Shown: positions 38,699 through 64,000 of the stretch, in pieces
How the letters are laid out: each line of letters starts with the position of its first letter
Numbering within the stretch: position 1 is the first letter of the stretch
From: Azolla caroliniana
Lineage: Eukaryota; Plantae; Polypodiophyta
Reading direction: 5' to 3'
Assembly (NCBI GenBank): GCA_043228905.1
Contig: JBHGNT010000031.1
Location: 186,001-250,000 of the forward strand
Length of the DNA: 64,000 bases
Position numbers and translations under genes: made by a program
The notes under the pieces: generated by a model
Told to the model about the DNA's origin: nothing
What the model saw: the letters and a program-made list of their open reading frames with translations, nothing else
Database searches by the model: none

Positions 38699-41600
38699 TG
38701 TCGAGGTATCCCTCGCGGATGCGTGGAATGAGGCGGGACCTTGGGGGTCCTGTACCGAAGAGCAAGGGAGAAAAGGGGAGGGGAAGAGACCCACAAGGTG
38801 CGAGCGTAGATTCACAGGGACACGGCCCTTCGACACAGAGACGCGAGTGCGACAGCGACACAGAGAGACACGAATGTATGTAGAAATATATATAAACGAG
38901 ACAAACAACAAGCACGAAGTCGGTTACAACCGAACAGGCCAGCGAACAGATGCCGATGCCTGTTCGTAAACGTACAGAAAGGAAGAAGTGGGTTGGAGGT
39001 GCTGCTGGAAGCACTCGGGCATTCCTCAGAGCAGCGCGAGCCTCCCGAAACCTGCACAGAAAGAAGCTATGGAGTTTGGAAGAGAGAGAAGCCTTCGGCC
39101 CACAATCCGACAACACTTCGTCCTCCCTTACTTCGCGACCCCCTCGCCCCTCCTCGTCTCCCTCCTTTTTCTCAGCAAGGAAGGAGCCGTTTCCCCTTTA
39201 CTTCCTACCTACCGAATCTACCAGCCTAGGATCTCCTATGTACAACATAAGGCGCACGTGCATGAAGAGCCGGTTCCTACGCCCCGGTGCACCGATTCCG
39301 CTTGTGGACGGTTTTCTTCACGACATCCGCCCCCACCTAACCGCGCATCCACCGGCATGCGCCAAATTGGGTTGGGACGGAGAAAACCGGTCCAGCCTTT
39401 ATTCCCCGCCCGTCGGTTCTTCGTCGGTTTCGGATCGTTCGTCGTCCCGGTCCAGGTTAACCGGGTCCGGCTCGTCGTCGTGACGCTTCTTGAACGCTTT
39501 GATCCACTTCCCAGCTACCGGTATCGCCATTCTCGTGTCGTCGAGCTCCGCCAGATGGTACGTCCCGTTGTCGTTGGCGCTTTGGACCACGTAAGGCCCG
39601 AACCAGCTTCTTGCGAACTTCCGTGTCGCTCGGTGCTGGTTGTCGAGGCTGCTGTCGTAGACTAGCACCCAGTCGCCTTCCTCGATCTTCTTTGGTCGGA
39701 GCCGGTGCGTCCGGTCGAACCGGGCTTTGTTCCTCATCCTTGCCATCCGAAGCTTTTCCGTAGCTCGCTCTACGTCCTCCGGTCTTCGCTCGAGCTGCCG
39801 TATGCGCGCCGTCAACAGTTCCTCCCAGCTCATCTCGTCTCTCCAGTCCACGGTTGCCCATGAGGAGATCGTACGTTCCATTGGCATGATCGGCTTCTGC
39901 CCAAACATGAGCTCTACCGGCATGAATCCGGTTACCGAACTGTGCGTAGTTCGGTCCGCCCACAATGCGTAAGGCAACAGCTGCGGCCAGTTCCCGACTT
40001 GACCTCCGCATGCCCGAACTAACGCCTTGACGATCGGTCCGTGTCCGCGCTCCACCTTCCCATTCGCCTCCGGATTGTACGCAGTGGTAAGCGAGAGCTT
40101 GACTCCTAGCCGGTCGAACAGCTCCTCGGCCTCTTCGGCGTCCAACTCCCCGCGATCAGCCACGATCTTCCCGACGCACCCGTACCGGCATATCACGTCC
40201 TCGATCAGGAACCGACATACGGCCGCGGTCGTTTTGTTCTGAAGGGCTCGGCCTTCCACCTGGTTCGTCAGATCTTCCCGAGCTAGGACCAGATACCGCA
40301 TCTGTCCTACGCCCATCGGCATCGTCACCAGATCTACCATCCATTTGAAGTGGATAGTCGGAGGGTACGTAGGGTGAAGCTCGTTCCGATGCCGGAATAT
40401 GGAGTGCATCTGACAGCTCTCGCAAGTTGTCACGAACCGATGCACGTCCCGGTACAGTCCCGACCACCAGTACTTCCCCTTTATCTTCTCGAATGTGGCC
40501 CACGTTCCACGGTGTCCGGCACAAGGGCTGTCGTGGTAGCCCGTCAGCAGCTCCTCCTGTTCTTCCTTCATCGCCAGCACCCGGAGCGGGACGCCGTTCC
40601 TCTTCTTCGGGTGCTTCCATAAGTATCCGTCCAGGAGAAAGAATCGGTAAGCTTTCTTCCGGATCCGGTTGGCCTCGTCCTTCGTCCACGACACATCCGG
40701 CGTCATCGTCCTCAAAAATCCACCGATCTGGAACCACTCGCTGTCGTACTTGCTCTCGTCGAAGTCGTTAAGTGCCGGAGTGCTCGTCCCATCGGTCGTC
40801 ACGTACGCTGCCTCGAAGAAGTCCACGCCGACTTCTTCGTCCTCCGAAACCATGCCGCCCTCGTCATCAAACCTCGCCCTCGAAAGCATGTTGGCCATGG
40901 CGTTGTCCTTTCCGGAAATGTGCCGTATTTCCGGGTCCAGGGACTTGATGTACGCTATCCACCTGAGCATCGCCAGGTCCGGTGTCGCGCATCCGGAAAC
41001 CATGCCGAGAATTGGCAGGCAATCTGTCTCGATAATCACTTCTGTCCCGATCAGGTAGTCTTTGTCGGCCTTTACTCCCGAAACGATACCCCAGAGTTCG
41101 CGTTTAACCTGGGCGTACCCTCGCTGTCGCTCACTGAGGACCTTCGCGCCGAATCGGATCGGGAACCGAATGCCGTCCTCGTCTTCTTGGTTGACGACCC
41201 ATCCGATACCGGTCGGACTCGTATCCACCGTTATGTATACCGGGCTACCCTTCTCGTAGACAGCCTTCCGGAGCGCCGGTGCTGCCGCAAGAGCTTCCTT
41301 CAGCTTCCGGACCGACTCCGTGTGCTCGTCTCGCCACTCGAATTTTCTCCCTTTCTTCAGCAACCCGTATAGCGGCTCCGCAACGTGGGCGTAATGCGGG
41401 ATCCATATGTGGTAGAACGCGTATGCCCCCAGGAACCTCCGAACTTCCGTAACCGAGCTACAATCGGTCTTCATCGCGGAGATGGCTTCTACCTTTGCCG
41501 GAGACGGCTTCCGGCCATATGGTCCACATAGGTGTCCGACTACCAGGATTTCCGATTGCCCGAAGGCCGATTTCTCCCCGGAGAAGGTGAGCCTCGCATC

Positions 41601-44600: not shown

Positions 44601-44884
44601 CTCCCGAAACCTGCACAGAAAGAAGCTATGGAGTTTGGAAGAGAGAGAAGCCTTCGGCCCACAATCCGACAACACTTCGTCCTCCCTTACTTCGCGACCC
44701 CCTCGCCCCTCCTCGTCTCCCTCCTTTTTCTCAACAAGGAAGGAGCCGTTTCCCCTTTACTTCCTACCTACCGAATCTACCAGCCTAGGATCTCCTATGG
44801 ACAACATAAGGCGCACGTGCATGAAGAGCCGGTTCCTACGCCCCGGTGCACCGATTCCGCTTGTGGACGGTTTTCTTCACGACA
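38699..44884 (-). mobile_element. Non-chromoviral (Phygy-like) Ty3/gypsy element; a deletion removed the 5' LTR end, PBS and gag N-terminus
   Basis: 3' LTR at 38699-39325 and partial 5' LTR at about 44456-44884. TSD GCGG at 38695-38698 and 44885-44888. PPT at about 39326-39337. Confidence 0.92.
39399..44455 (-). pseudogene. gag-pol: Gypsy gag-pro-pol: knuckle, protease, RT, RNase H and integrase; 878-aa RT-RH-INT ORF at 39399-42035
   Basis: Motifs CMWCDEVGHIRKDC, ALVDHGSEIN, DLYSGYDQ, PFLDNI (FLDD mutated), VDTSPTGIG, ADRGE, NGKVER and WFGPY. Confidence 0.93.
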
Positions 44885-45022: not shown

Positions 45023-45875
45023 AGAATAGGGTGGAGATAATCTAAAGGAGATGTGAGAGTAGGACTCTTACTTTCAGCCACATTGGCAGCAATATCCTCA
45101 TTTGTTGTAGTGTCATCAGCACCAGACATATCATGTGCCGTCCTTAATCCACAAGATTCTACAATAACATGGCAGCTATTTAGGATAGCTAATTAGCTAC
45201 TTTACTAAACTATGGTAGAAGCTAGGATAGCTAATTAGCTAGTACGATAGCTAATCAGGATAGCTAATTAGCTAGTACGATAGCTAATTAGGATAGCTAA
45301 TTAGCTAGTACGATAGCTAATTAGCTACTTTACTCAACTATGGTAGTAGCTAGGATAGCTAATTAGCGTAAAGTAGCTAATGGTAGTAGCTAGGATACTA
45401 CTTTACTCAACTATGGTAGTAGCTAGGATAGCTAATTAGCTACTTTACTCAACTATGGTAGTAGCTAGGATAGCTAATTAGCTACTTTACTAACTATGGT
45501 AGTAGCTAGGATAGCTAATTAGCTACTCTCAACTATGGTAGTAGCTAGGATAGCTAATTAGCTACTTTACTCAACTATGGTAGTAGCTAGGATAGCTAAT
45601 TAGCTACAATGATAGCTAATTAGCTACTTTCTCAACTATGTAGTAGCTAGGATAGCTTATTAGCTACTAGGATAGCTTATTAGCTACTTTACACAACTAT
45701 GGCAGTAGCTAATTAGCTAGTAGGATAGCTAATTAGCTTTTTTACACAACTATGGTACTAGCTAATTAGCTAGTACCATAGCTAATTAGCTGCCAATAGC
45801 TAATTAGCTACTAGGATAGCTTATTAGCTACTTTACACAACTATGGCAGTAGCTAATTAGCTACTAGGATAGCTC
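45023..45875. repeat. Displaced copy of the exon/intron junction and palindromic satellite found at about 60061-60900
   Basis: AGAATAGGGTGGAG..CACCAGAC..AAGATTCTACAATAACATGGCAGCTATTTAGG is followed by the TAGCTAATTAGCTA array, colinear with 60061 onward. Confidence 0.92.
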
Positions 45876-48800
45876 TGTCGAATACAAGTGTATAATGGAC
45901 GTATTCACACTATCCCTTTGTATAGCTCAAGTTTGGGCCATTTGTGTAATTAGCATAAATGGTAGTTGCCCTAAGTCGTCACTATATAAAGTGACCTAGT
46001 AACCTTTTTGTAAGGTTGGGTTGTATTATTGTTTCTATTGAATAGAAAGACTCATTGTGTGCCTCTCTCTCTCTCTCTCACTCTCTCTCTCTCTGTCTCT
46101 GTGCACGATCTTGCAGAATGTCATACGTAGGTACTCAGCACAAATCGAATGCTATTTGATCTTCCGCATTGACGACACGGCCTTTGTCCCCAACATCTGG
46201 TATCAGAGCCTGCACAGTATTCGGTCCTTCAACTCGCTGTCGGCCGTCGTCTCAGCTTGCACAACATTCGGTTTCCTGCGTCATTCGAAGAAGAGAGAAG
46301 AAGAAGAAAAAAAAAAACGAGGCTTGCATCTCATCGCGTTAGATCATCTTCGCTTGGAGTAAGCCAGCCGGTTGTACTCTGTTCCTTGTGATCGTAACTG
46401 CTCGAGGTGAAATCCCCTTGCGCAACATTGACACGATCGTGCTCCACTCGGTTAAACGGCATCCGAAGAGGTCATCAAACGCTGCTCGCCGCTCATTGTA
46501 ACCACTCGGTGCAGATCGGTCTCAAGACAACAACCCAAATTCGTGCTTCATCCGGCTGATCGACATTCGGGAGGATCAGTTGGATCCGTCTCTCTCGTCG
46601 CTGCAGTCACCCGAAGCAGAATCGGTCCAGACAATCGGTTTCAATAATCGGTATTTGGCATATATATTCGGAAGCGAACCGGGCTCACTCCGACTCGGCA
46701 ACATTCGGGAAGACCAGTCGGTTCTGTCCCTCAAGTTACCGGAGTCAATTCGAGCAAGTTCAACAATACATATATCCGAAGCCGAACCGACTCGGGTTCA
46801 AATCCGACTAGAACGATATCGGGTGAGCCAACCGGCTGCACTCCAACAAGGTTCATAGTCAACTCCGAACCGAGCTTCGTCAACCGAAACCAAATTTGAT
46901 GGCATCAACATCCGGCTCGTTAGAAATGAGTCTACGAAAGTTCGATGGATCGAACTTCAACTTCTGGAAAGAGCAAATGCAGGACTATCTCATAGTCAAG
47001 GGGCAAATCGATCCCATCGAAAATGAAGAACCTCCAGAAGGATACAAACCAATTGAGTGGCAGAAGCTGGACAGAATCGTCCGCGCCACGATTCGGATGC
47101 ACCTATCGGAATCGGTATACTTTACGGTGCAATCGTGTACGACAGCATTCGAACTGTGGAAAACACTGTCGGACACTTACGAAAAGAAGGTCGCCGCAAC
47201 GAAGATGTTTCTGATCCGGCGCCTCTACAACTTGCGGATGAAAGAATCCGATTCGGTTCAAGCACATCTCAATGAGTACGAAAGCATAAGCTCCCAAATC
47301 TCATCTCAGGGGACGGCAATCGAGGATGAACTTAGAGCAATGATACTCATGAGCAGCCTTCCCTCATCATGGGAAACTTTCGTCACAACCGTGTGCAACG
47401 CGTCAACCACGGCTGTTAAATACTCCGAAGTCACGAGCGCAATCCTGACCGAAGCAGCTCGGAGAAAGTCTTTCGCCAAAGACTCAACAGACGACGCTTA
47501 CGTAGTACAAGGTTCGACAGACCGATCGAACATACGAGGAAGAGATTCCTCACGGCAGCCGAACAATCAGCGAAGACGGAGCCAGTCACGGGATAATCGA
47601 ATCTGCAATTATTGCAAGAAATCCGGACACATCAAAGCCGACTGCCGCGCACTCAAGAACAAGAACGACAAGTCTCAGAAATCAGACAAGAAGAGTGGCC
47701 GGCATGAGGAGATCAATTACGTCAGCTTCTCAGCTGATGTGCTACCAAACGACCCGAATATACTATCAATCGAAAATCCAGTCGGATCAGAAGTTCTGCT
47801 CACGACTGAAGAATCGAGCACATGGCTCTTAGATTCGGGCGCGTCATTTCACGTGACTCCTCATCGATCCCAATTTCGGCAATATACGATCCGTCACTCC
47901 GACTCAGTTCGAGTCGGCAACTCGCAACACTGTGACATCATTGGAATCGGCACAGTAGAGCTCAACCTTGCAGGTGGCTCTACACTTGTACTTCACAATG
48001 TCCGACATGTACCCGAGCTCTCAAGGCCATTGATCTCAGTCGGACAACTAGATGAAGACGGCATTCGTGCCGGTTTTTCTTCGGGAGGGTGGACACTCCA
48101 CAGGGGGAACCTCCTGCTTGCTAGAGGACCCAAGATACACTCACTGTATCTGTTACATGTTACGCTCAGAGAGGGTAACCTGTTTTTGGTGGATATTCCT
48201 GTGTCATCACTATGGCACAGAAGATTAGGACACCTCAGCAAGGCCGGCATTACGCACCTATCTAGAGCCGGATACATCCCTAAACTCTCCTTCTTGGACC
48301 ATCAATTCTGCGAACATTGCCAGTATGGCAAACAAGCAGCCGCATCACACCCGACATCAGCACCAAGAGAAACGAGACCTCTCGATTTAGTTCACTCGGA
48401 CGTCTGTGGCCCAATGCCGCATCAGTCTCTCGGTGGTGCCTCTTACTTCGTCAGTTTTATTGACGATTCGACTCGAAAGGTGTGGGCTTATCCAATTCGC
48501 ACCAAAGATCGTGTCTTCTCGATCTTCTCCGATTGGCTTGCTATGGTAGAAAATCAAACTGACCGAAAACTGAAATGCTTTCGGACCGACAATGGGGGAG
48601 AGTTCAAATCAGAAGAATTCGTCAAATTCTGCCGACAACGCGGCATCCGACGTGAATTTACGGCACCACACAGTCCGGAGCAAAACGGGATTGCAGAACG
48701 CATGAATCGGACAATCCAAGAACGGATAGTTTCCATGCTCCAACACTCCGGACTGTCGGATGGCTTCTGGGCAGAGGCTCTACTCACGGCAGTACACATA

Positions 48801-51449
48801 ATCAATATGTCGCCAAGCAGACCTCTAGGACTTCAAATTCCTCAGGAACTATGGATCGGCAGTAAGCCGAATTACGACAAGCTGAGGATCTTCGGATGCG
48901 AGGCGTACGCCCTTATTCCGAAAGATGATCGCCGAAAACTTGCACCTCGGTCCAGGAAATGCATTTTCCTTGGATATGGATCAGACGGCGAAATGGGATA
49001 CCGACTCTGGGACCCCGAACGCAGACAAATCGTTCGAAGTTCGGACGTTGTGTTCAACGAGTCGGCTATGAATCCATCAGTCGAAAAACCGATCGAAGTC
49101 CGAAGGGTAACATTTTCCGATGTGCCGACCCTTCAAGAAGGCCCCGCTCTTAACACACGGTCAGCTTCACGGGTAGCTGAACCTTACACCACCGACTCGG
49201 ACAACTCTGACTCGGCACAGCAGAATAATTCGCTTTCGGACCATCCGACCTCGATACCCGCTGCGACCAGTCCAATCATACCTCGACGATCCGAGAGACT
49301 GTCGCAACCTCCGGAGAGGTATTCTCCTGGAATTTTCTTCACCGACGCCGGCGAACCGACGTCTTACGAAGAAGCATCGACATCTGTCGATTCAGCCACC
49401 TGGCATCTGGCGATGGAGTCGGAAATGCACTCCATCCGGGCAAACAAGACTTGGGATCTGGTCGAACTACCTAAGAATCGACGTGCTCTTCCTTGCAAGT
49501 GGGTTTATCGACTAAAAGAGACGTCTGATTCGACCACCCCAAAGTACAAGGCCAGATTAGTTGCGAAGGGCTTCCGACAAGAATATGGCGTCGACTTCGA
49601 CGAGATTTTTTCACCAGTGGTGAAAATGACAACCCTTCGTTTTCTACTCGGCGTAGTGGCAGCCGACAACTTGGAGCTGATTCAGCTAGATGTCAAAACA
49701 ACCTTCCTCCATGGTGATCTTAAAGAGGAAATTTATATGGAATAGCCAAAAGGCTTCGTGGCAACTGGCCAAGAACATCTAGTCTGCCGACTCAGGAAGA
49801 GTCTATACGGCCTCAAACAGGCACCGCGACAATGGTACAAGAAGTTCGACGACTTCATCCAATCGATCGGCTTCTCAAAAAGCGATGAGGACCATTGTCT
49901 TTTTACCAACACAACTCAAGATGGATCACCCATCTTCCTCATCATTTACGTGGACGACATGCTAATTTCTGGACGCCACGCGGGCGAACTTGCCGATCTC
50001 ATTCGGCAACTGCGGTTGAAGTTTGCCATGAAGGACCTCGGTCCGGCACGACACATACTTGGCATGAAGATTAGTCGGCATCGCGATAAACGACATCTTT
50101 TTTTGTCTCAGACCAACTATATCGGACGTGTCTTGGAACGCTTCAACATGCAATCAGCCAAATCTGCTTCAACCCCGCTCCCCATGAATCTTCGGCTCTC
50201 TCAGCGAGACTGCCCGACATCCGGTCCGGAGGGGGAAGATATGAAGTCGGTACCGTATGCACCGGCAGTCGGCTCCCTTATGTACCTGATGGTCGCGACA
50301 CGGCCTGATATCTCTCATGCCATAGGAGTCGTTAGCATATTTATGCACAATCCTGGCCGATCGCATTGGAACGCAGTCAAGCATGTGTTCAAATATCTGG
50401 CTGGCACAAAAGATCACGGCATTCTCTTCGGTCCGAACTCAACCTCAGGCGTAGTCGGTTACACCGACTCGGACTTCGCCGGCTGTATAGACAGTCGGAA
50501 ATCAACAACTGGATACTGCTTCAAGTTCGGCAATGGAGCAATTTCGTGGAAGTCGAAACTTCAGGAGTGCACAGCGACCTCAACGACCGAAGCAGAATAT
50601 GTAGCTGCGTCCGACGCTGCAAAAGAAGCTTTGTGGCTCGGCCGGCTGGCGCACACGTTCCGACAAGTCGACCATGACTCGGCCCCAGTTGTCTATAGCG
50701 ACAGTCAAGGTGCTGTTGCCTTGTCGAGAAATCCGGTTCACCACAACGCCTCCAAACATATCGACGTTCGATATCACTTCGTTCGGGACTGCGTCATTTC
50801 AGGGAAAATCGGTCTAGAGAAAATATCCACAACCGACAATGTCGCAGATGGAATGACCAAGTGTCTTTCGGCAGACCGCTTTCGGTCCCTTCGGCATCAG
50901 ATGGGCGTAACGAAAAACCAGTCCGGTTAGAGCCGGACACAGCGCAGGATGGTTTCAGACAACCGACATCAGTTCCCTAATGATCGGCTTCAACTCTTCC
51001 GAGCCGACCAGTCCGGTCTTCTGCCTTCGGACCCTGCCGACTCGAACAAAACTGATATGTCCAAGAACCTAGGTTTATACCTGTAATCTTAGATAACCCA
51101 TGTATACGCCCATTACGGGGGAGTGTCGAATACAAGTGTATAATGGACGTATTCACACTATCCCTTTGTATAGCTCAAGTTTGGGCCATTTGTGTAATTA
51201 GCATAAATGGTAGTTGCCCTAAGTCGTCACTATATAAAGTGACCTAGTAACCTTTTTGTAAGGTTGGGTTGTATTATTGCTTCTATTGAATAGAAAGACT
51301 CATTGTGTGCCTCTCTCTCTCTCTCACACTCTCTCTCTCTCTCTCTCTGTCTCTGTGCACGATCTTGCAGAATGTCATACGTAGGTACTCAGCACGAATC
51401 GAATGCTATTTGATCTTCCGCATTGACGACACGGCCTTTGTCCCCAACA
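45876..51449 (+). mobile_element. Young, full-length Ty1/copia element
   Basis: Nearly identical LTRs at 45876-46195 and 51124-51449. TSD AGCTC. PBS TGGTATCAGAGC at 46198. PPT at 51117-51123. Confidence 0.97.
46896..50930 (+). CDS. gag-pol: Copia gag-pol polyprotein with a single in-frame TAG (49743-49745) in RT
   Basis: ORFs of 949 aa and 390 aa lie in the same frame. Motifs CNYCKKSGHIKADC, WLLDSGAS, VHSDVCGP, IYME*PKGF, IYVDDML and DSDFAG. Confidence 0.93.
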
Positions 51450-52229: not shown

Positions 52230-53697
52230 GTGAAGTTATCCGGAAGCGGTCTAGTTAAACTCCTCACTCTCTCTTATCGGCTCCTTCGTTCAAGACCTCG
52301 ATGGTCCCGCCCCATTCCGACGCATACACGTGGATTTCCGCGACGTCTTTGGTGAACTCGACGTGAAAGGGACAACAACTGAGTCCAAAATTGTAATAAC
52401 CATGATCATTAATCCTAAAATAAAGACATAAGTGACACAATCATACTGAAAATACGCGTTACCACCCATCTGCCCCTGGGCCAGATTCGACAGCACAAAC
52501 GAGGAATCCCGATCTGTCCCATACCAACGAGGATCTCCACATAAGGACCATGGTAGATGACTAGTTCACATCAAAGAGAGCTTCGTCAGAACCACTCATG
52601 GGGCCCATCCTGACTAAGGAGAGTATCCCCTATCTATATGACCTTGGCCATGTAATGACATCTACTTGACCAATCATGTGTGGGGAACCCAATGACACAC
52701 ATTAGGTCAGTCCAATAAAGCCAACGACTCAGATATTACAGTATGATAGCCCCCAAATAAGCATGTCTAAACCAATGAACATTACAAACTCCCCCCCTTT
52801 GTTTAATTGCACTCTTGCAATGGGAAGTTACGAAAATGTTTGCGTAATGTGTCTCCAGTTTCCCACGTGTTGTCTTCTTCCAATCTATCCTTCCACTTAA
52901 CCTTATACCAATGAACAACCTTTGACCTTAGGTTTCTTGACCTATGGTCGGGGATTTTCTCAGGTTCATGTGGAGCAAAATGATCATTCCTCGAATGTTG
53001 ATAAATTAGACGGTGATACAACATTATCATCATAACCAATCGCCTCATTTAATCAACTCACGTGGAATACGGGATGAACCATAACATTGGAAGGCAAATC
53101 CAAACGATAAGCATTGGGACCTATACGTTTTAAAAATTTATATGGTCCATAATACCGTGGGGCTAATTTTGCACATGATCCTGTTCTCAATGTTTCTGAG
53201 TTCTTAGAAACCCGTAGAAAAACCTGTTGTCCTACGTATCATGATTCTGAGTTTTCTATCATGATTCGCATAAAAGACATTTCTATCTCGTGCCATCCTA
53301 AGGTTTTCTTCTGCTAATTTACGTGCTTCAAGCATATCAGAGAGAAAATCGTTTGTACTATCCAAAGTATGCGAATCAAACGAAACATCAATAGGAGGAT
53401 ATGACGTATAACCATACATCAACATGAACAGACTTTATTTTGTTGATGTATGCTTAGCGTTGTTGTAGGAAAATTCCACCATAGGAAGGAAAGTCTCCCA
53501 TAATGAGAGTTTTTGCGCTACATATCCTCTAATATTTGATTCACTCTCTCAGTTTGCCCATCTGACTGAGGATGATCAGACGAATTGAGACTCAAGGTTG
53601 TTTGCAGTTTCTGCATAACGTCTGACCAAAATGTACTTGTAAACTTGGAGTCTCAATCACACTTACAATCTCGATTGGTAGACCATATAAGCTATAA
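52230..53697 (-). pseudogene. Chromoviral gypsy 3' end: LTR remnant, PPT, chromodomain and integrase C-terminal half
   Basis: The LTR edge ..ATTACA lies at about 52786, followed by a C-run (PPT on -). Motifs YKVKWK....DNTWE, PRYYGPY, HPQSDGQTE and LYGLP. It breaks off abruptly at 53697. Confidence 0.8.
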
Positions 53698-54059
53698 GGG
53701 GGAAAGCATGCGAGTGGAAACAATTAGCTATGTCCTTGACATAGCTAATTAGCTATGCAAAAAGCTACCATTGATAAATAGTCATTTTAGTAAAAAGCCA
53801 TCATTAATAAATTAACTATGCAAAAAATTACCATTGAAAATACTAGAGTGTTTTAATTACATATGCAAATGAGTGCCATAAATGTGCAACATAAACGTGC
53901 AACATAATTTGATATGTGCACCATAAATGTGTACCATAAATTATATATCAAATTCCTAGGTCCATTATGCATGATCCTTTGCCACATCATGTAGGCCATC
54001 TCTAGTTGAGTATTGTGGGTTAGTTTCTACCACTGTCGCTAAACCCTATCGAGTCCACC

Positions 54060-54720
54060 TGCCACCACTCTACACTCAAGGGCCGCTACTGTGCGTTCCA
54101 AGCATCATCAAAGAGCTGCTCAATCTGACGGGGTTCTCTTCTCTGTGCCACTCTACACTCAGGGGCCGCTATTGTGCGTTCCAAGCATCATCAAAGAGTT
54201 GCTCAATCTGACGGGGTTCTCTTCTCTGTGCCACTCTACACTCAAGGGCCGCTACTGTGCGTTCCAAGCATCATCAAAGAGTTGTTCAATCTGACGGGGT
54301 TCTCTTATCTGTGCCACTCTACACTCAAGGGCCGCTACTGTGCGTTCCAATCATCATCAAAGAGTTGTTCAATCTAACGGGGTTCTCTTGTCTGTGCCAC
54401 TCTACACTCAGGGGCCGCTATTGTGCGTTCCAAGCATCATCAAAGATCTGTTCAATCTAACGGGGTTCTCTTGTTTGTGCCACTCTACACTCAGGGGCCG
54501 CTACTGTGCGTTCCAAACATCATCAGTAATTGTTCAATCTGACGAGGTTCTCTTCTTTGTGCCACTCTACTCTCATGTGCCTTCTCTGTGCGTTCCAAGC
54601 ATCATCGGTAACTGTTCAATCTGACGGGGTTCTCTCCTCCATTGCCATCATTCTACACTCAGTTGCCGCTATTGTCCAGTCCTGGATTGCCTCCACATTT
54701 CGATTTGACGGAGTTCACTC
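54060..54720. repeat. 83-bp tandem array, about 7 copies, decaying to the right
   Basis: Unit CCACTCTACACTCAAGGGCCGCTACTGTGCGTTCCAAGCATCATCAAAGAG..CAATCTGACGGGGTTCTC. The ORF starts at 54091, 54174, 54257 and 54340 show the 83-bp period. Confidence 0.95.
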
Positions 54721-54967
54721 ATCCAATGGCAACATTCTACACTCAATTGTTGCCATTGGTCGGTCCTGGATCACCTCCTCAACTGTTCGATCCAATGGAG
54801 TGAACTCCTCTACTGTTCGGTCTTGGATTGCAATAACTTTTCTATCTATTGATTATCTTGTGTATTGTTGTGTCTAATCTTGTGTATTGTGGAATATTGT
54901 TGTGTATTGTTGTTGCCGATGGCCATCTTAAATACTTGTTTTTTTTCTGGAAATTTAGGGTTTTAAC

Positions 54968-57900
54968 ATGTCCAGCCAAATGGAAGGGGAAGAAGGGTGT
55001 TTAGAATTACCCTTCAATGATCATAAGGATAGGGATGATGCTATCAGGACACAACAAGCCATACGAAACTATTGGGCAGAAAAAAAAAAGGAAACATCGT
55101 CAATTGTTGAAGGATACGAAAGCCACACTCAGTAAAGGTAAGGATAGTTTAGCTGAGAATGTAAGTAATGCGAAAGAAAGGTTGTAGACTATTTCAATGT
55201 TCAAACCAAGCACATCAGCAATGAAGAAAAGAAGGTAGTACTTTATGGAATATGTAATGATCCATCGATAAAGGACTTAGTTGATTGTGATGGTCTTAAT
55301 GCAAACATATCATCTATTTTAGTAAATAATCTTCGTAATAGTTTCGTATCCATGAGCAGGTCAGAAGATGATCTTGTCTTAAAAAGGTCTAGTCTAATGA
55401 TGTTACTTAATAGTGATGTTGACGATATAAACATCAGTGAGCTATCTAAGGTAATTAGTGTTAGTAGAAAAACAGTGTACAATACAATGAACCGTATAAT
55501 TTCCTCGGGTGAAGGAACTAGTCTACTAAAGCTAACTACAAGATGTAAGCCAATCACACCCATAACATTTGAAATCAAGGATGTAATCACAATGTTTTGG
55601 ACTAATGAGAGTAGGGTTTCACCCAATAAAAAGGATTGATGCAGGAAACGTGTTGGAAGAAATCAATAGGAGGAGCATCCCATTCATCTTCTTGATGTAC
55701 CTCAGGTATTTACATTTATCTCAACATTTGTTTTGACTCTACACGGAAAGTTAATTAGCTCAGTTAGCAGAAAAGCTAATTAGCTTATCAGTTACATTTA
55801 CCTCAGTTAGCTACTAGGATAGCTACTACATAGGTAACTGGCTACTCTCAATAGCTACTACCATGATAGCTAATTAGCTATTCTCAATAGCTAATTTAGG
55901 TACTACCAGATAATTAGCTGTCTTGGTAGCTAGTTAGCTATCATGGTAGCTAGTTAGCTATTTCGTTATTACCAGCTAATTAGCTACTAGGAAAGCTAAT
56001 TAGCTACCATGATAGCTAATTAGCTTACTAGGATAGCTAATTAGCCACTGTGATAGCTAATTAGCTACTAGACCAGCTAATTAGTTACTAGAAACCTAAT
56101 TAGCCACCATGATAGCTAATTAGCTACTAGGACAGCTAATTAGCCACCATGATAGCTAATTAGCTACTAGACCAGCTAATTAGCTACCATGATAGCTAAT
56201 TAGCTACTAGACCAGCTAATTAGCTACCATGATAGCTAATTAGTTACTAGGAAAGCTAATTAGCCACCATGATAGCTAATTAGCTACTGACCAGCTAATT
56301 ATCTACTAGACCAGCTAATTAGCTACTAGAATAGCTAATAAGCTACTAGAATAGCTAATTAGCTACTAGAATAGCTAATTAGCTACTAGGATAGTTAGCT
56401 AGTTACGTGAATAACTAATTCCCCTTTATTACGTAGGTCGATTTATTTATTAGGTTCAAACGAATGCATCCAACTATCAAAGTTCAACTAAGAACATTCG
56501 AGTCTCTTAAGCCACACTTTGTGAGACACTTAAAGGATCGATACACATGTTGCATTTACCATGTACCGATGGGTTTTCTGAAGGACTCTATTAATCTACT
56601 ACGTCACCATAGCGCATCCCTAACTAATACAGTTTGCACATGTGGGTGCCCAATCTGTCGATCAAGCCCGCAAGAGGAGTGTAAATCATCTGAGCACATT
56701 ATCTCTTCCATGAGTTATTTATTAGATTCAATATTGTGTCTGAGAGAAACTGACACTATCTTCCATATTCATAAATGTGTCATGGGTTTATGTCAAGATT
56801 GTGGCCCTACTAGATTTAGGTGGTGTCCAAATGAACTGAGTAGTGAAATATTGATCTTTGTGAGGTTCTTTGAGTCAGTGAACACCAATTTCGAAGGAAA
56901 GGTGTGTAAAAGAAAGGATCTAGTTCGGAAGATGCTTAAACCAAGGGATTTGGTGTCTCTGTTTGTAGTATCTCTAGGAAAGTTCATTAAACACAAGTTC
57001 ATTTATTCATGGCAGGCCCATCAGTTTAAGACTTACATATCTAATTTCCCAAATGATGTAGTAGTCTCAGTAGTAGATTTCGCAGAGAATTATACTTTCA
57101 AGCAGCAGAATGAAATTCAATCTATGCATTGGTGTTCAGTTCAGGTAACCATTTTTGTGCACATAAAATATTTTCGAGTTTCAGGTGATGTTAAAAAAGT
57201 AATTCATTTCTTTATTTCCGATGATAAGAAGCATGATACCTTGTTCGTCCAACACTGTTTTAAGTTACATTGGCAGTGGTTATTAGCTCAACGTGCATCA
57301 CATGTAGTTGAATTTTTAAGAACAAATATGTCAACGAGTGCAACAGGTGTTTATTCCTCGCAAGTCCGAGATATCAAACATGAATTTTGGGAAGTGAAGA
57401 TAGATGAAGTAAATAGAGAGAAGACCTGGGAGTGCCAAGGAATTCCCGAATTGCAATCTTTGCATGTTGTTCGCGGTTATTCCAGGTTGGATGGTCATTG
57501 TATTGCGGTTAGAGAATTGACTTGTTTTTGCTTCCATTGTGTGTAGAGAAATTGGAGATATTGTCTAAACAAAGCATAGATTCAGAACTGGGAGTATCAC
57601 ACTCTGAATGATAAGGAAGCAGTTGATGGAGAAACAAGGCAGAATGCTAACTTCACATATGAGGGACTTGGAGATACTTTGAGTGGTGTCCTAAACGTTG
57701 GGGATAACTTCGCTGTAAATGCTAAAGAAGGCAATTCAAAGGGTGTTGATTTCTATATATTGAAGTGCACGGTTAGTAAACAGTGTGCAAGGCAGAATAT
57801 TGTAGATGCATGGGGAAATTTTGTATCTGCCGGGACATTCTACATCGAAGGCATTTTTTATGCAAAACTAGATGACTACGAATATGTGTACAGGCTGTTA

Positions 57901-58047
57901 GAAGACAAACCAACGGCGTACATGTACTCTCATTTGGTCAGGTACATCAACGTCCCAATGTCAGAATACAATAGCTGCTCAGGTTTATACACTGTTGGTG
58001 CTAATGTGTATGAATGTATTTACAATAGTATGCCATGGAATTTGTAG
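54968..58047 (+). pseudogene. Spliced Sola2-like DDD transposase; intron at 55706-56436; carries stops and an internal deletion
   Basis: SPNKKD..LLDVPQ|VDLFIRFKRMHP..F..LKP is in frame across a GT..AG intron. A Cys-rich region is followed by VDFAENY..QNEIQSMHW...QVTIF, SDDKKHD, IP...SLH and CFC..C. Confidence 0.7.
55750..56410. repeat. Intronic array of the palindrome TAGCTAATTAGCTA
   Basis: Dozens of copies with short spacers (CTAGGA, CCATGA, CTAGAC), bounded by the donor at 55706 and the branch point/acceptor at 56413-56436. Confidence 0.95.
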
Positions 58048-58395
58048 CTACAAGTAGCACTTACCATGTTCTCTTGTAAAACAAACATGTATTTCGCGAA
58101 AACAGTTAAATAAATTCGTTTGAGAATCAATTTCTTGTATATAGTCTGCTTTCTGTGCTTCTTTCTCAATAAAATCATGTCTTTTTTGTTAAGTTATAAG
58201 TTATAAGTTATATCGAAATAGTCATCAGTAGCTAATTAGCTGTACAAATGCAGCTAATTAGTTGTCAATAGCTAAATAGTCATCAATAGCATGAAATCAA
58301 CAATCTTCAACATATTCCTCAAATTACACAGTAGATAAGTACAGTGGGAACAATTAATTAAATTCTCCATTGAATAATGTCATCTCTTTACATAT

Positions 58396-59411
58396 TTATA
58401 AATTACCATTGGAAATGTCTACAAATCTCCTACAAACAACTAAGCTCTTATTAGTCAGTGGAACGAGTCTACATATATTATCCGCATATCGAGCTCGGTA
58501 TGGAGTCCACAACCATGCACCTAGTTGGCAGCTCACTGTCTGCACCAGGTACTGTTCAGGCATTTCCTCGGGTAGAATGAAACAACATCTCCGAATATTG
58601 AAGTAGTGCCGGAAATGTTCTGTATCCAAAATCAATGTATTGTCGGCATTATATTCAAGTCAAGTAGCCCAAAAATCAGAAAGTCTCTTGAATCTTGCAA
58701 CTTCCATTTGCTCACAATTTTCTTGTGCCCATTGACCTTTAAAACGACTTTGCCATTTTGGGAAGAATCTTGCTAAACACTTCCACATATCTGATTTTGG
58801 TTTTTCACTCCAAATAAACAAATCAAAGTATTGCACAACCCACTCTAGAAACTGATTCGTGTCCCTCCTTGGCTGCATATATCTCACACTCATCAAGACT
58901 TTATCAAGCTCAAAGATCAAGGCTCTTCTTTCGACTTCTAGTGGTTTAGGTTTCCATTCCTGAAACTGAGCCGTTGTTACACCATTTTCTGGTAGGACAC
59001 GATCAATCTCAATCAGCTCAGGTTCGGCCGACACAACTGGCGTCCTTTTCCTCTTCAAACCCCTAGTCGACTATGTTGGGCCTGGTTTCACATTCTGGTG
59101 CTCTTGTTTTGTTGACTTAGTTATCAATACTTGGATTACCTCGGTGCATGTAGCTACTAATCTGTTCGATATCAGTCCACTAGTATCACGTGCTGCATCT
59201 ACCTGCAACACCAAGTCATCCGTGCAACATGCAACATCTACCTGCAACACCAAGTCATCCGTGCAACATGCTTGATCAACTTGTGTGACCAGATCACTTG
59301 TGTCAGTTGCTACATCTACTTTCAAGATGGGGCCCTTTAAACATGCCGCAACATCAACAATATCCACACTGCCATTGGCCTTACGAGCAATAGAATCAAA
59401 CCGTTTAGACT
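58396..59411 (-). pseudogene. FCP1/NIF-like HAD phosphatase-domain cargo gene with N-terminal 13-aa repeats and a basic patch
   Basis: ORFs 59071-59490, 58660-59058 and 58396-58635 are in one frame, separated by single stops. Motifs LIFELDKVL, R...QFL.W....FDLFIWS, FKRL..FW and NTLILD. Acceptor TTGCAG at 59412. Confidence 0.6.
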
Positions 59412-60209
59412 CTGCAACATCAGAAAACACCAACATATTCACACTCACAAAGTAACTAACATTCTCACAAAACAACATCCTGAACATCAAAGAGTTTCAG
59501 TCATAGAACAACACTCTTCAAATTATCTTGGAAAAACATCATAGAGTTCCATTACATAATGTGGATCAAGCAACAACCAATCTAAGGTTTTACTTGTCCA
59601 ACAGGATAGTAAAACTTCATAAAACCCTAGCAAAATCCCTAAGCTAACAATCATATCCAACTAAACAGTATTTCGCTCCACTACGTCTAGGCCCCTTGAC
59701 CGAGTAACTGGTCTTGTTCCCGATCGTGGCCCCTTCTTCAGCCTTTTTCTGGTCGGTTCCCCATTTAGCCTTGCTTCTTTCACCCAATGCGCAAGTGTGT
59801 CCTCCTCCAACAACCTTCCCATCGCCTCAGCAGCTAATTGCACATCAACCGTTTCTTGAACTAGCTTTTCAAGTACAGAGGGATTTGTTTGGACATTTTT
59901 AGTAGTTGGGCTCGATGGGGTGGAATCAAGGTCTTGAGATTCGAAGAAATGTTGCATCAGGTGTTCATAAACACTGTTGTTGTGAACCTCAATTTTACAT
60001 GTTGTTTCCACTATTTCATGGCATTTCACATCGTTGCCTAATTCAGTACACTGTTCCAAAAGAATAGGGTGGAGCTGATCTGAAGGAGATGTGATAGCAG
60101 GACTCTTACTTTCAGCCACGTTGGCAACAGTATCCTCATCTGTTGCAGCGTCATCAGCACCAGACACATCATGTGTCGTCCTTAATCCACAAGATTCTAC
60201 AATAACATG

Positions 60210-61500
60210 GCAGCTATTTAGGATCGCTAATTAGCTACTTTACTAAACTATGGTAGAAGCTCGGATAGCTAATTAGCTAGTACGATAGCTAATTAGCTAC
60301 TTTACTCAACTATGGTAGTAGCTAGGATAGCTAATTAGCTACTATGGTAGCTAATTAGCTACTATGGTAGCTAATTAGCTACTTTACTCAACTATGGTAG
60401 TAGCTAGGATAGCTAATTAGCGTAAAGTAGCTAATGGTAGTAGCTAGGATACTACTTTACTCAACTATGGTAGAAGCTAGGATAGCTAATTAGCTACTTT
60501 ACTCAAATATGGTAGTACCTAGGATAGCTAATTAGCTACTTTACTAACTATGGTAGTAGCTAGGATAGCTAATTAGCTACTCTCAACTATGGTAGTAGCT
60601 AGGATAGCTAATTAGCTACTTTACTCAACTATGGTAGTAGCTAGGATAGCTAATTAGCTACTTTACTCAACTATGGTAGTAGCTAGGATAGCTAATTAGC
60701 TACAATGATAGCTAATTAGCTACTTTCTCAACTATGTAGTAGCTAGGATAGCTTATTAGCTACTTTACACAACTATGGCAGTAGCTAATTAGCTAGTAGG
60801 ATAGCTAATTAGTTGCCAGTAGCTTAGCTAGTAGGATAGCTAATTAGCTTTTTTACACAACTATGGTACTAACTAATTAGCTAGTACCATAGCTAATTAG
60901 CTACTAGGATAGCTTATTAGCTACTTTACACAATTATGGCAGTAGCTAATTAGCTAGTAGGATAGCTAATTAGTTGCCAGTAGCTAATTACCTAGTGGGA
61001 TAGCTAATTAGCTAGTAGGATAGCTAATTAGTTGCCAGTAGCTAATTACCTAGTAGGATAGCTAATTATCTTTTTTACACAACTATGGTACTAGCTAATT
61101 AGCTACTAGGATAGCTAATTAGCTAGTAGCTCATTAGCTGCCAGTAGCTAATTAGCTAGTAGGATAGCTAATTAGCTACTTTACACAACTATGGTGATAG
61201 CTAATTAGCTACTCATAGCTAATTAGCTAATAGCTAACTAGTTGGCATTAGCTAATTAGCTGCCAGTAGGATACTTAATTAGCTAGTAGCAAACTAGCTG
61301 CCACTTAGCTAATTAACTACTGTAGTAAACTATGGCAATAGCTAATTAACTAATAGGATAGCTATTAGCTGCTTTAATCAACTATGGTAGTAGCTAATTA
61401 GCTACAACAATAGCAGCAATTACGGCTTAGCTAATTAGAAAAGACTAAGCTTATTAGCAGCAATTACGGCTTAGCTAATTAGAAAAGACTAAGCTTATTA
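60210..61500. repeat. Intronic array of the palindrome TAGCTAATTAGCTA (intron 60197-61517)
   Basis: Higher-order unit of roughly 45 bp (CTACTTTACTCAACTATGGTAGTAGCTAGGATAGCTAATTAG), bounded by minus-strand CAG|GTATAC and TTGTAG|. Confidence 0.95.
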
Positions 61501-62949
61501 GCTACAGTATGGTATACCTGTTAGTTTTCTCCACTCATTTGGTAGAGCTGTACTGCAATCTCCCAAACAGAATGCAACAATTCGACAGGCATGTTGAAAA
61601 CAAAGCAGATGGTATGTGTGGTTGCATGGTTGTAGGTGAACCAACAAAGACGCAATTTTGTCCTCCACACCTAACCCGCAAGCGATGCAACGTGCTTGAA
61701 CTGTCAATAAATCATTTTCTGGTTCTGCTTCATTTGGTAAGGGAGCAAGAATGTTCAGGTCCAAATCCTATCTAGTCCTTACCATTCCCTCCACAAAATG
61801 TAGCTGCTTCTTAAGGCAGCTAACTACCTGTTCTTGATGAATGTATTGTTCCTTCAACGCAACAGAGAAATTTACAGATTAATTATTCCTATTGTTGAAT
61901 GATACACCAACTTTGCTCAAGAATCGTTAACTTAATTGAAGCTTATCCAAATTGTAATCTGCAACAGTATTTACACCTAGAAGGTCCAGGTTCATTGAAA
62001 GAACCTGGATCTCTATTTGCAGTTGTATTTTACGTTGGGGATCCAGTGGCCCCTCTAATTCAAGCTCCTGTTGCGCAACCTATTCCAGATAATGCTTGAT
62101 TAGCACATTTTACCCTTAAAGTTATTTATAACACAATCACATACCAGCAAAACAATAGTTACCTGAATCTTATTTCTAATCGTTGTAACAACGGAAGTAA
62201 CTTTGCTCTCCATTGCAAAAGCCATTGTGGCTTTCTCTAAATCAGTCTTAAAAAATGCCAATGTCTCACAGGCTTCATGGACATTTTTTAGCATATAGCC
62301 AACCAATGTCTCACCTGTATCATCGACATTGGCTTTCCTTGGGTGTCGGTGTGGTGTATGCCCCCGGTCTTGCTGGGAGTCAGCAGTTGCATCAACAGCT
62401 GCCATGCTCCAAAATCTGTCTATTTTTTTTGCCAAGGTCCCCATCTTTCGGCATCTTTTTACCGATGCCTCACCATAGACTGCCCAAGCTACACTATACA
62501 TTTCAGGGTCTCTGGATTCCTTCGTTGTTTTGCAGTACTCATATGCAAATGCTCTAGCAAATGAAACTGACAACTCATTGTTGACTGGGATGTCCTGATG
62601 AACTTTCTGGTGCAGCGTCATGCAGTCATCGTACAAGTCGGCTCGTACATGCTTCAACTTGACCTTGCCTTTGACTCTAGGCACTATATATACTATCATC
62701 CAGTCTACATCACTGATCAATTTATCACTTAGGACAGCAGGGTCAACACCCTCGAGTGACAGACCATAGGTGTTGTGGAAGTCCTCCTTTGTCTCGCAAA
62801 ATTTTGCGAAGTTTAGCACTCTCGGATACAAAGGAACGAGCCATCTGAAATATCATTTCAGAAATAAGAAATACTGCAAAATCCGAATATGTCAGAATCA
62901 AAAACCCCAATCAACAACAACAAAAATGGTGCAAAATCTTTAACTTAGC

Positions 62950-63770
62950 AAATCAGAAACCCTAATCATAATTTGTATTCAGAAATTTGAAATCAGAAAC
63001 CCTAATCAAAATCTGTAATCAGAAGTTTGAAATTAGAAACCCTAATCAAAATCCGTAATTAGAAGTTTGTAACCAAAAACCCTATTCAGAAATTCTAATA
63101 AAAAATTTATAATCAAAAACCCTAATAAAAAATTTCAATCAGAAACCCTAATCAGAAATTTCAATCACAAACCCTAATCAGAAATCCTAAACAGAAATTT
63201 ATAAACAAAAACCCTATTCAGAAATTCTAATTAGAAATTCTAATCTGTAATCAAAATTTGTAACCAGAAACCCTATTCAGAAATTCTAATAAGAAATTTA
63301 TAATAAAAAACCCTAATCAGAAATTTCAATCACAAACCCTAATCAGAAATCCTAAACAGAAATTTATAAACAAAAACCCTATTAAGAAATTCTAATCAGA
63401 AATTCTAATCTATAATCAAAATTTGTAACCAGAAACCCTATTTAGAAATTCTAATCAGAAATTTATAATAAAAAACCCTAATCAGAAATTTCAATCAGAA
63501 ACCCTAATCAGAAATTTCAATCACAAACCCTAATAAAAAATCCTAAACAGAAATTTATAAACAAAAACCCTATTCAGAAATTCTAATCTGTAATCAAAAT
63601 TTGTAACCAGAAACCCTATTCAAAAATTCTAATTAGAAATTTATAATCAAAAACCCTAATCAAAAATTTTAATCAGAAACCCTAATCAGAAATTTCAATC
63701 ACAAACCCTAATCAGAAATTTATAAACAAAAACCCTAATCAGAAATTTCAATCAGAAACCCCAATCATCA
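62950..63770. repeat. Intronic telo-box (AAACCCTA)-rich tandem array (intron 62845-63812)
   Basis: Repeated AAACCCTAATCAGAAATTT(C/A)..AATC units with higher-order structure, bounded by minus-strand CAG|GTGTGT and TTTCAG|. Confidence 0.9.
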
Positions 63771-64000
63771 CTAAAGATAGGATTAAACACAAAAAAAGTA
63801 ATATAAACACACCTGCTGCTACTCCCCGATCTGGGAGACATCCTTGTATGGGACTCTAAGGACTTCACCTTATTCGATTTTGGGGAAATATGAATCGGCA
63901 CCAAAGTTCAGACAGTAGTCAAAAAGAAAAAACAAATGTTTGGGGTTTCTGTAACTGAAACATACCTGGATGATGATCGAGTAGGTTCTGTGTTGTAGCT

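What the first reader, a model, noticed from the sequence alone, without database searches (positions are those of the whole stretch)
53698..64000. Large cargo-carrying Sola2-like DNA transposon with convergent spliced genes
Seen: a gypsy integrase is cut at 53697, and a new sequence begins GGG. It contains an 83-bp array, a spliced transposase with DFAENY..EIQSMHW..Q.T motifs, and two convergent minus-strand genes (FCP1-like and RING). The whole segment shares one signature palindrome and exceeds 10 kb without reaching a second end. Knowledge: as I recall, the DF(A/S)ENY motif and G-R-G termini with 4-bp TSDs characterise Sola2, which is normally described as a compact, transposase-only element. 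Inference: this may be an undescribed family of giant plant Sola elements carrying chromatin or transcription effectors, possibly for anti-silencing (analogous to VANC of VANDAL).
Basis: partly seen in the sequence, partly recalled or inferred. Interest (0 to 1): 0.85.

Follow-up and report, generated by a model that had tools for sequence, protein, structure and literature searches.

The report
Two-gene Sola2 transposon of ferns
This is a broken copy of a many-copy cut-and-paste jumping gene, likely from a fern, whose family carries beside its transposase what is likely one long partner gene, and that gene's protein likely binds a 12-letter palindrome arrayed in the element's non-coding parts and would help keep the element switched on.

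Summary
Real, high-copy element; reading partly corrected. Unrelated flanks join position 53698 in four of four runs laid, and contig depth stays high from there to 64000, for transposase and cargo alike. Intact relatives keep the Sola2-type D-D-D motifs; this copy lost two of the three in a ~76-codon deletion. Its C-terminal domain is predicted to be BAH-like (moderate support). The 'two' minus-strand genes are likely one spliced gene (unknown-fold N-domain, coiled coil, RING-H2, FCP1-like domain lacking the catalytic Asp), because fern proteins hold these parts in one chain and order. AGCTAATTAGCT occurs 42 times, never in coding DNA, and also beside a candidate right end that shares a 25-bp terminal repeat; that end is not physically linked, so the TSD is untested. 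Large cargo-carrying Sola elements are already in print (Sola2-Fanzor; 21.5-kb Ectocarpus Sola1). This scan noted the same design on another piece of this genome (e1-10618503). I found no paper on this cargo. Binding and anti-silencing are untested inferences.

The parts
53694..53697 (+). Left target-site 4-mer ATAA (candidate TSD; duplication untested)
   Evidence: flanks of other ends
53698..53722 (+). Left terminus, candidate 25-bp TIR (window GGGGG..., the 7 loci read GGGTG...)
53745..53757 (.). Subterminal AGCTAATTAGCT palindrome
54065..54780 (+). 83-bp tandem array (7.3 copies plus decayed units) upstream of the transposase; unit number differs between copies
   Evidence: joint skipping 250 bp
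54969..55705 (+). Transposase first coding exon (start codon inferred; frameshift near 55080, two stops); weak HTH match
55706..56436 (+). Transposase intron with palindrome array (15 exact copies)
56437..58047 (+). Transposase second exon: Cys-rich region, DFAENY (D1), ~76-codon deletion at 57293/57294 removing D2 and D3, two stops
57664..58020 (+). Transposase C-terminal domain, predicted BAH-like fold
58048..58395 (.). Spacer between the convergent 3' ends, with 1 exact and 1 near palindrome
58396..59411 (-). Cargo last exon: low-complexity linker, basic KRKR stretch, FCP1/NIF-like domain with E-L-D-K-V in place of DxDxT; two stops in this copy
59661..60196 (-). Cargo acidic exon (inferred; 3' splice point not fixed)
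60197..61517 (-). Cargo intron with the largest palindrome array (25 exact copies)
61518..62079 (-). Cargo coiled-coil and RING-H2 exon(s); a small internal intron is possible; three stops in the read-through frame
62163..62844 (-). Cargo N-terminal domain exon (confident model, no PDB fold match) and start of coiled coil
62845..63812 (-). Cargo first intron with AAACCCTA (telobox-like) array, 22 copies
63813..63841 (-). Candidate cargo start exon (phase matches the N-domain exon; inferred)
63966..64000 (-). Candidate upstream exon; the element runs on past the window

Best explanation
It is a decayed, non-autonomous copy of a high-copy Sola2-type DNA transposon, likely of a fern, that carries a transposase gene and what is likely one convergent partner gene, whose protein likely binds the element's own AGCTAATTAGCT arrays and would keep the element's chromatin open for transcription and transposition. 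Steps: (a) shown: the element inserted into a gypsy integrase; many copies share this left end; transposase and cargo are co-amplified; intact relatives keep D-D-D; this copy lost D2 and D3. (b) inferred from family knowledge: an intact transposase, supplied in trans, cuts at 25-bp TIRs and inserts into AT-rich 4-mers. (c) predicted: the transposase's BAH-like tip reads histone marks at donor or target chromatin. (d) inferred: the cargo is one protein (N-domain, coiled coil, RING-H2, FCP1-like pseudo-phosphatase); a coiled-coil dimer of the N-domain would fit a palindrome, the RING would ubiquitylate a chromatin factor, and the dead phosphatase would bind rather than dephosphorylate a phosphoprotein such as the Pol II CTD. 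My odds: architecture (a, one cargo gene) about 0.85; Sola2 membership about 0.8; cargo binds the palindrome about 0.4; the effect is anti-silencing about 0.3.
For: Terminus: loose ends before 53698 in 4 of 4 runs, agreement 0.44-0.50, i.e. unrelated flanks; 2 of 7 metagenome loci are this left end in new flanks, 5 of 7 a second end class sharing 25 bp. Co-amplification: single contigs of run X4 have depth 349-417 on the transposase, 283-363 on three cargo parts, 292 at 63738-64000, and 14.7 on the gypsy flank (the tool warns depth is no copy number). Transposase: 71 relatives; 50 of 50 stored relatives of 550 aa or more keep all three motifs; motifs match the published Sola2 alignment by eye. 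One cargo gene: P0205 hits all three parts in order (E 1e-19, 2e-9, 1e-17), P0271 carries N-domain, RING core and NIF, 10 of 133 N-domain relatives carry the RING core; splice phases fit at three of four junctions. Cargo is kept intact: relatives at 93, 88, 82, 72%, domain better conserved than linker in 6 of 6 pairs. Motif: 42 copies, 0 in about 5.1 kb of coding DNA, commonest spacing 20 bp (31 of 66 gaps under 100 bp), then 33 and 42, and present beside both end classes; VANC motifs lie in the same kinds of places (PMC5735166, passages). BAH-like tip: the top 17 VIA rows are all BAH-containing chains, Z 5.1-7.2, rmsd 2.7-4.5, 77-96 aligned, next rows 4.9 or less (9 titles name BAH, the other 8 I know as BAH proteins from memory).
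Against: No binding, expression or methylation data. The right end is outside the window and the second end class is not physically linked to it, so TIR pairing and TSD are unproven; 3 of 8 flanks read are not all A/T (TTTC, TTTC, TGCA). The RING-to-FCP1 link rests on two annotated gene models (P0205, P0271) and one by-eye match (P0179), and the splice point between the acidic and last exon could not be fixed. The palindrome sits next to both ends, where transposase binding sites are expected, so the transposase may be its ligand. The N-domain has no recognisable DNA-binding fold; its link to TRP28 is a lead only (score 0.88). BAH Z-scores are under 8 and Foldseek's best E is 0.06. The element's coding DNA is CG-depleted (observed/expected 0.52-0.58) like the old gypsy flank (0.65) and unlike the nearby copia (1.15), and 17 of 27 listed coding differences are C>T or G>A in this copy (drawn from the 40 rows shown of 536), so the family has been methylated.
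Confidence: 0.4

Rival explanations
1. The palindrome is the transposase's own subterminal binding site, spread into introns by slippage; the cargo protein is a transposition cofactor or regulator of the transposase (as MURB for MuDR or the Myb-like partner of Harbinger, recalled), for example an E3 ligase that limits transposase levels.
For: The palindrome lies about 48 bp inside the left end and at positions 33-44 of the second end class; exon 1 of the transposase has a weak HTH match (E 6e-5, below Pfam's cut-off); arrays are tandem with 20-bp and longer units.
Against: Only 1 of 42 exact copies lies near the left end; 40 lie in two introns kilobases inside, which is not where end-binding sites are needed.
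Confidence: 0.3
2. The cargo is kept by selection for a host-level effect unrelated to the arrays (for example a dominant-negative FCP1/CPL-like decoy that raises Pol II CTD phosphorylation generally), and the arrays and telobox repeats are host transcription-factor sites serving as enhancers.
For: NIF domain above Pfam's cut-off but without the catalytic Asp in 18 of 18 close-family proteins checked; 26 telobox-type 8-mers against 0.46 expected; TRB proteins recognise the telobox (PMC11287191, start of abstract in search listing).
Against: The conserved N-domain and RING are unexplained; the N-domain, not the NIF part, is what the 133 relatives share.
Confidence: 0.15
3. The cargo is a passively captured host gene (Pack-type) with no role for the element.
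For: Nearest named relatives are annotated Adiantum genes; this copy's cargo has five stops in the frames read.
Against: Intact reading frames in several diverged subfamilies, depth equal to the transposase, introns filled with the element's own motif, and at least nine diverged paralogues in one Adiantum species, with other relatives annotated as fused to gag or protease pieces, which fits a mobile gene family.
Confidence: 0.1
4. The transposase belongs to another or a new DDE superfamily, not Sola2.
For: No profile-level test against Repbase Sola2 was possible; the Atlas also lists DUF7869 clusters at 0.93; the C-terminal domain is absent from P0061 and P0064.
Against: All catalytic and Cys/His motifs match the published Sola2 alignment by eye; no Pfam transposase family matches P0001, P0030 or P0064 at E 0.01, as reported for Sola (PMC5751038, passage).
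Confidence: 0.08

Closest known systems
Sola2 DNA transposons (Repbase group; alignment in PMC3627910 Additional file 10, both parts read)
   Same: DFAENY..Q.EIQS.HW...Q, HD, SDG.A.Q.K, W.FF..GHGK...DG.G..KR motifs; upstream C.C..H and C..C..C; short TIR; mostly AT-rich 4-mer flanks
   Different: Convergent multi-exon partner gene, BAH-like C-terminus, internal palindrome arrays; HGKGEHDG in place of HGKxPCDG
Sola2-Fanzor1 chimeras of Dictyostelium fasciculatum and Polysphondylium pallidum (PMC3627910, passages)
   Same: Sola2 with a second gene in its 3' part, 12-21-bp TIRs, AT-rich 4-bp TSDs, transposase often deleted
   Different: Cargo there is a TnpB-like nuclease, unrelated to this one
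Sola1-1_Ec32 of Ectocarpus (PMC12477816, passages)
   Same: Giant Sola (21.5 kb) with an accessory gene on the opposite strand, proposed to bind and modify its own element
   Different: Sola1, and the cargo is a ParB-like/methyltransferase fusion
VANDAL/VANC of Arabidopsis (PMC5735166, passages)
   Same: Element-specific short motif in tandem arrays in introns, intergenic and terminal non-coding DNA; extra element-encoded gene
   Different: MULE host element; binding and demethylation shown there, untested here; homology to VANC not tested; motif here is a perfect palindrome
Maize En/Spm TnpA (recalled, no call)
   Same: Second element-encoded protein that binds repeated 12-bp subterminal motifs, aids transposition and reactivates the methylated element
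   Different: CACTA superfamily; motifs are subterminal only; no RING or phosphatase-like domain
Plant mobile domain proteins MAIN/MAIL and TRP28 of Retand retroelements (PMC5418596 and PMC11963269, passages; bioRxiv 10.1101/2024.09.27.615353, abstract)
   Same: Transposon-borne helical domains; antisense to the main gene and near tandem arrays (TRP28); PMD-C proteins associate with DNA motifs and oppose Polycomb; MAIL3 is fused to a phosphatase domain
   Different: Homology of the cargo N-domain to TRP28 is a sub-threshold lead (0.88); described from flowering plants; not on Sola

Membership tests
Sola2 | D-D-D catalytic triad in Sola2 motif context | tested here: met
   50 of 50 stored relatives of 550 aa or more; compared by eye with the published alignment. 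This copy keeps D1 only.
Sola2 | Upstream C.C..H and C..C..C motifs | tested here: met
   By eye
Sola2 | Terminal inverted repeats on one element | tested here: inconclusive
   Two end classes share 25 bp but no contig links them; the second could be a sister family's left end
Sola2 | 4-bp AT-rich target-site duplication | tested here: inconclusive
   Right end not available; 5 of 8 flank 4-mers are all A/T; majority flank letters ATAT, TAAT, TTAT, ATAT in four runs
Sola2 | 5'-GRG terminus (criterion recalled; the original paper was not held) | tested here: met
   GGG in the window and in 7 of 7 loci; the search pattern required GRG, so the loci are not an independent test
Sola2 | Profile or tree placement with Repbase Sola2 transposases | not testable with these tools
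   No Repbase or Dfam library; published sequences could not be entered
VANC-type anti-silencing system | Element-specific motif in tandem arrays in non-coding regions | tested here: met
VANC-type anti-silencing system | Encoded by a VANDAL (MULE) element | tested here: not met
   Transposase motifs are Sola2-type; no MULE Pfam match
VANC-type anti-silencing system | Sequence homology to VANC | not tested
   No VANC sequence was at hand
VANC-type anti-silencing system | Protein binds the motif and removes silencing | not testable with these tools
   Needs bench work
FCP1/SCP CTD phosphatases | NIF (PF03031) domain | tested here: met
   23.7 bits for the window part, 31.5 for P0144, cut-off 21.8; weak match to UBLCP1, E 0.019
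FCP1/SCP CTD phosphatases | Catalytic DxDx(T/V) motif (requirement recalled) | tested here: not met
   E-L-D-K-V in 18 of 18 close-family proteins checked; D-L-N-G in P0205 and P0271
RING-H2 E3 ligases | C3H2C3 ligand pattern | tested here: met
   Window and 5 of 133 relatives fit the strict pattern, 10 the core; Pfam scores are below cut-off; ligase activity untested
BAH domains | BAH fold | tested here: inconclusive
   Top 17 VIA rows all BAH-containing, but Z 7.2 at best; Foldseek E 0.06
PMD / TRP28 (PF10536, PF04195) | Profile match of the cargo N-domain | tested here: inconclusive
   Atlas 0.88 with a homologue; neither family among the 25 shown of 57 in a Pfam scan of 69 members

The most novel reading that the evidence does not exclude
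Fern Sola2 elements encode a self-addressed chromatin effector of a new kind: a DNA-binding domain of undescribed fold, dimerised by a coiled coil, reads helically phased palindrome arrays in the element's introns and brings in an E3 ligase and a Pol II CTD-binding pseudo-phosphatase, while a BAH-tipped transposase steers insertion by histone marks. It would be an anti-silencing system evolved independently of VANC, in seed-free plants, and a portable sequence-specific de-silencing module.
Probability: 0.25. Interest if true: 0.85.

Novelty: new variant of a known kind. Interest (0 to 1): 0.55.

Why it matters
Few transposon-encoded, sequence-specific anti-silencing proteins are known, and those I could read about are from flowering plants or are only proposed (algae). 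This family offers a defined protein and a defined 12-bp candidate site, so the idea can be tested by one binding assay and one reporter. The N-domain folds confidently yet matched no solved structure in three searches. Contigs assemble at high depth from runs of only 71-83 million letters, so the family is abundant and may matter for the size of a fern-type genome. A BAH-like reader on a Sola2 transposase would bear on how such elements land in retrotransposon-rich chromatin.

Tried and rejected
No whole genome is held, so the right end could not be followed. No relatives in viral contigs (0 of 55 candidate stretches); 2 of 53 in prokaryote genomes, both partial, not informative. No RNA holder listed among the runs, so splicing and expression are unchecked. 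Search for fused forms longer than the cargo alignment covered only 1396-3985 aa and found none: uninformative. Cargo N-domain: no fold match in PDB by Foldseek (best E 2.4), by VIA (best Z 2.5) or in viral models (best E 0.88); this does not show the fold is new. Sequence searches of PDB: coiled-coil noise only for the N-domain alignment, nothing for the transposase. Bao et al. 2009 and Yuan and Wessler 2011 were not held. Paper searches that found no description of this element: Sola2+transposon+plant (17 listed), Sola+DNA transposon+TIR+Physcomitrella (3), Sola/fern/transposase/cargo (25 of 738 listed), Adiantum+Sola (0), six-term cargo search (20 of 95 listed), BAH domain+transposase+Sola (0), Sola2 with seed-free genera (15 of 2,218 listed, none holding Sola2); Repbase entries and subscription papers are not covered. 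PMC7156037, PMC12973397, PMC4455052 and bioRxiv 2021.09.26.461848: passages read, no bearing on the cargo beyond Sola being rare among active plant elements (9 of 3203 clusters with Ginger). Rejected: two separate cargo genes (less likely than one); cargo as single-copy host genes next to the element (depth and motif-filled introns); active phosphatase (motif); the 45023-45875 stretch as a second end (it is an internal fragment). No complex prediction was run, since the open question is protein-DNA binding. The script stopped after printing the motif table; the rest was rerun. Exon limits used for the motif counts differ by 1-3 bases from the final ones.
Full report
Setting. The window is a nest of copia and gypsy retroelements. 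No whole genome is held. The nearest named relatives of the cargo are Adiantum proteins, so the source is likely a fern; this is an inference.

The left end is real. A gypsy integrase with its SH3 domain runs on the minus strand up to 53697. Contigs from four runs (three samples) laid on 53600-53900 show 6-12 loose ends per run just before 53698, with agreement of 0.44-0.50, so many copies start here in unrelated flanks; in three runs a contig instead continues the gypsy sequence past 53697, the empty site. Summed depth rises about tenfold or more at this point and stays high to 64000 in 4 of 4 runs. A scan of metagenome contigs for the terminus gave 7 loci: 2 are this left end in new flanks and 5 are a second end class that shares the first 25 bases and then diverges, with the palindrome at positions 33-44. 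The second class is the likely right end, giving a 25-bp TIR, but these contigs end within 135 bases and do not link to the window, so a sister family's left end is not excluded. Flank 4-mers are ATAA, AATA, TTAT, ATAT, TTAA, TTTC, TTTC and TGCA: 5 of 8 all A/T. The TSD itself is untested.

The transposase. The second exon has 71 relatives among 591 candidates, the closest 93% identical and intact (P0001). All 50 stored relatives of 550 aa or more keep DF(A/S)ENY, SDG.A.QFK and GKG.(H/W)DG. These, and the upstream Cys/His motifs, match the Sola2 alignment in Additional file 10 of PMC3627910, which I read in both parts and compared by eye. No Pfam family matches P0001, as reported for Sola (PMC5751038, passage). 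The window copy lacks about 76 codons at 57293/57294, including D2 and D3; other copies carry sequence there (loose ends at 57293 and 57294). It also has four in-frame stops in the frames read and a frameshift near 55080, so it cannot move itself. The intron 55706-56436 falls where intronless relatives read through. The C-terminal 155 residues fold with pLDDT 84; the top 17 rows of a wide structural search are all BAH-containing chains (Z 5.1-7.2; DNMT1, MTA1, EBS, ORC1, AIPP3 and others), followed by Tudor/SH3-type rows at 4.9 or less, and Foldseek's best rows are polybromo BAH and EBS at E 0.06. I call it BAH-like with moderate confidence; an earlier scan note on another family (e1-10619578) gave me the lead.

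The cargo is likely one gene. The frame at 62163-62852 has 133 relatives. P0205 (752 aa, an Adiantum gene model) matches the N-domain, the coiled-coil/RING part and the FCP1-like part in the window's order; P0271 has the same three parts; 10 of the 133 carry the RING core, two of them (P0250, P0256) from unannotated contigs. GT-AG sites with matching phase exist at 63813/62844, 62163/62079 and 61518/60196; the junction into the last exon could not be fixed, and no RNA was available. The FCP1-like frame has intact relatives at 93, 88, 82 and 72% in clusters of 6, 4, 25 and 17 members; the domain is better conserved than the linker in 6 of 6 pairs. Its first motif reads E-L-D-K-V in 18 of 18 close-family proteins checked; from memory the first Asp is the nucleophile, so it is likely a pseudo-phosphatase. 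The N-domain folds with pLDDT 93 and pTM 0.86; a language-model search with a homologue points to TRP28 (PF04195) at 0.88, a lead only. In run X4 single contigs on the transposase (349-417) and on the cargo (283-363) have similar depth, against 14.7 on the gypsy flank, so the cargo is part of the amplified unit.

The motif. AGCTAATTAGCT occurs 42 times in 53698-64000 (shuffle mean 0.005, maximum 1): 1 near the left end, 15 in the transposase intron, 1 between the genes, 25 in a cargo intron and none in about 5.1 kb of coding DNA; outside the element it occurs only in an orphan fragment at 45023-45875. With one mismatch allowed, the gaps are mostly 20 bp (31 of 66), then 33 (7) and 42 (6), near whole helical turns, though tandem units alone could give this. 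A second array of 22 telobox-type 8-mers fills the cargo's first intron.

Mechanism. Shown: a multi-copy element with a defined left end, a Sola2-type transposase and a co-amplified, conserved partner gene. Inferred: cut-and-paste movement by intact copies in trans; a cargo dimer binding the palindrome arrays and using RING and dead phosphatase domains to hold the element open; a BAH-like tip reading histone marks. The placement of the arrays matches that of VANC sites in VANDAL elements, in introns, intergenic and terminal DNA (PMC5735166, passages), and PMD-C proteins act through DNA motifs against Polycomb (bioRxiv 10.1101/2024.09.27.615353, abstract). Against it: the palindrome also flanks both ends, where the transposase would bind; coding DNA is CG-depleted (0.52-0.58) and 17 of 27 listed coding differences are deamination-type in this copy (from 40 rows shown of 536), so silencing has acted on the family; nothing shows binding.

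Comparison and novelty. Cargo and large size are known for Sola: Sola2-Fanzor1 in amoebae (PMC3627910, passages), elements over 15 kb in a review (PMC10741241, passages), and the 21.5-kb Ectocarpus Sola1 with an opposite-strand accessory gene (PMC12477816, passages; I was led to it by notes e1-10587314 and others). Seven paper searches showed no description of this cargo, of a BAH-tipped Sola transposase or of fern Sola2 elements in the rows listed; Repbase, subscription papers and most supplements were not covered. This scan already noted a complete 9.9-kb two-gene Sola2 with RING/pseudo-phosphatase cargo on another piece of this genome (e1-10618503); it agrees with my reading but is an unreviewed note, not support, and a sequence look-up found no look-alike, so it may be a sister family. 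Verdict: a new variant of a known kind, interest 0.55; the architecture is well supported and the function is an open, cheaply testable hypothesis.

Noticed in passing
window 45023-45875: Orphan 853-bp piece of the same element (end of the acidic cargo exon plus palindrome array; 92% over the first 158 non-array bases, 87% overall, 17 exact palindromes) with no terminus, ending where a copia element begins.
   Followed up: partly
window 45876-51449: Near-intact copia element, LTR parts 97% alike over 326 bp, 5-bp duplication AGCTC, one in-frame stop near 49745.
   Followed up: partly
window 38893-44884: Gypsy-like element on the minus strand with 433-bp direct repeats 98.6% alike and an 887-aa pol frame; likely young.
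   Followed up: no
window 62950-63770: Array of AAACCCTA telobox-like 8-mers (22 copies) filling the cargo's first intron; more lie just upstream of the transposase start. Could recruit TRB-type factors.
   Followed up: partly
window 53768 and 53788: Contigs that share the first 70-90 bases of the left end and then diverge into other conserved sequence: sister families or non-autonomous derivatives.
   Followed up: no
L002:1032-1037 and L003:1788-1793: Two ends of the second class share the same six flanking bases (GGTTTC) in otherwise unrelated flanks; unexplained.
   Followed up: no
L002, L003, L004, L007 flanks: Flanks of 4 of the 7 end-bearing loci match repeats of this window (L003, L004, L007 retroelement-like parts; L002 shares sequence with L007's flank), in line with insertion into repeat-rich DNA.
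   Followed up: partly
proteins P0075/P0298 and P0078/P0296: A transposase and an FCP1-like protein list the same longest-contig length (10,576; 8,892), hinting at shared contigs; a third protein (P0102) also lists 8,892, so this is only a hint.
   Followed up: no
protein P0066: A Klebsormidium transposase relative aligns over the catalytic and C-terminal (BAH-like) parts, so this lineage is old in streptophytes.
   Followed up: partly
proteins P0061, P0064: Related intronless transposases without the C-terminal domain; the P0064 cluster has 420 members on contigs up to 35 kb and could give full elements.
   Followed up: no
L008:860-1569 and L009:1038-1574: Partial Sola2-like transposase matches (40% and 33%) in two bacterial MAG contigs; the L008 match is broken and sits among bacterial genes; contamination or chimera not excluded.
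   Followed up: partly
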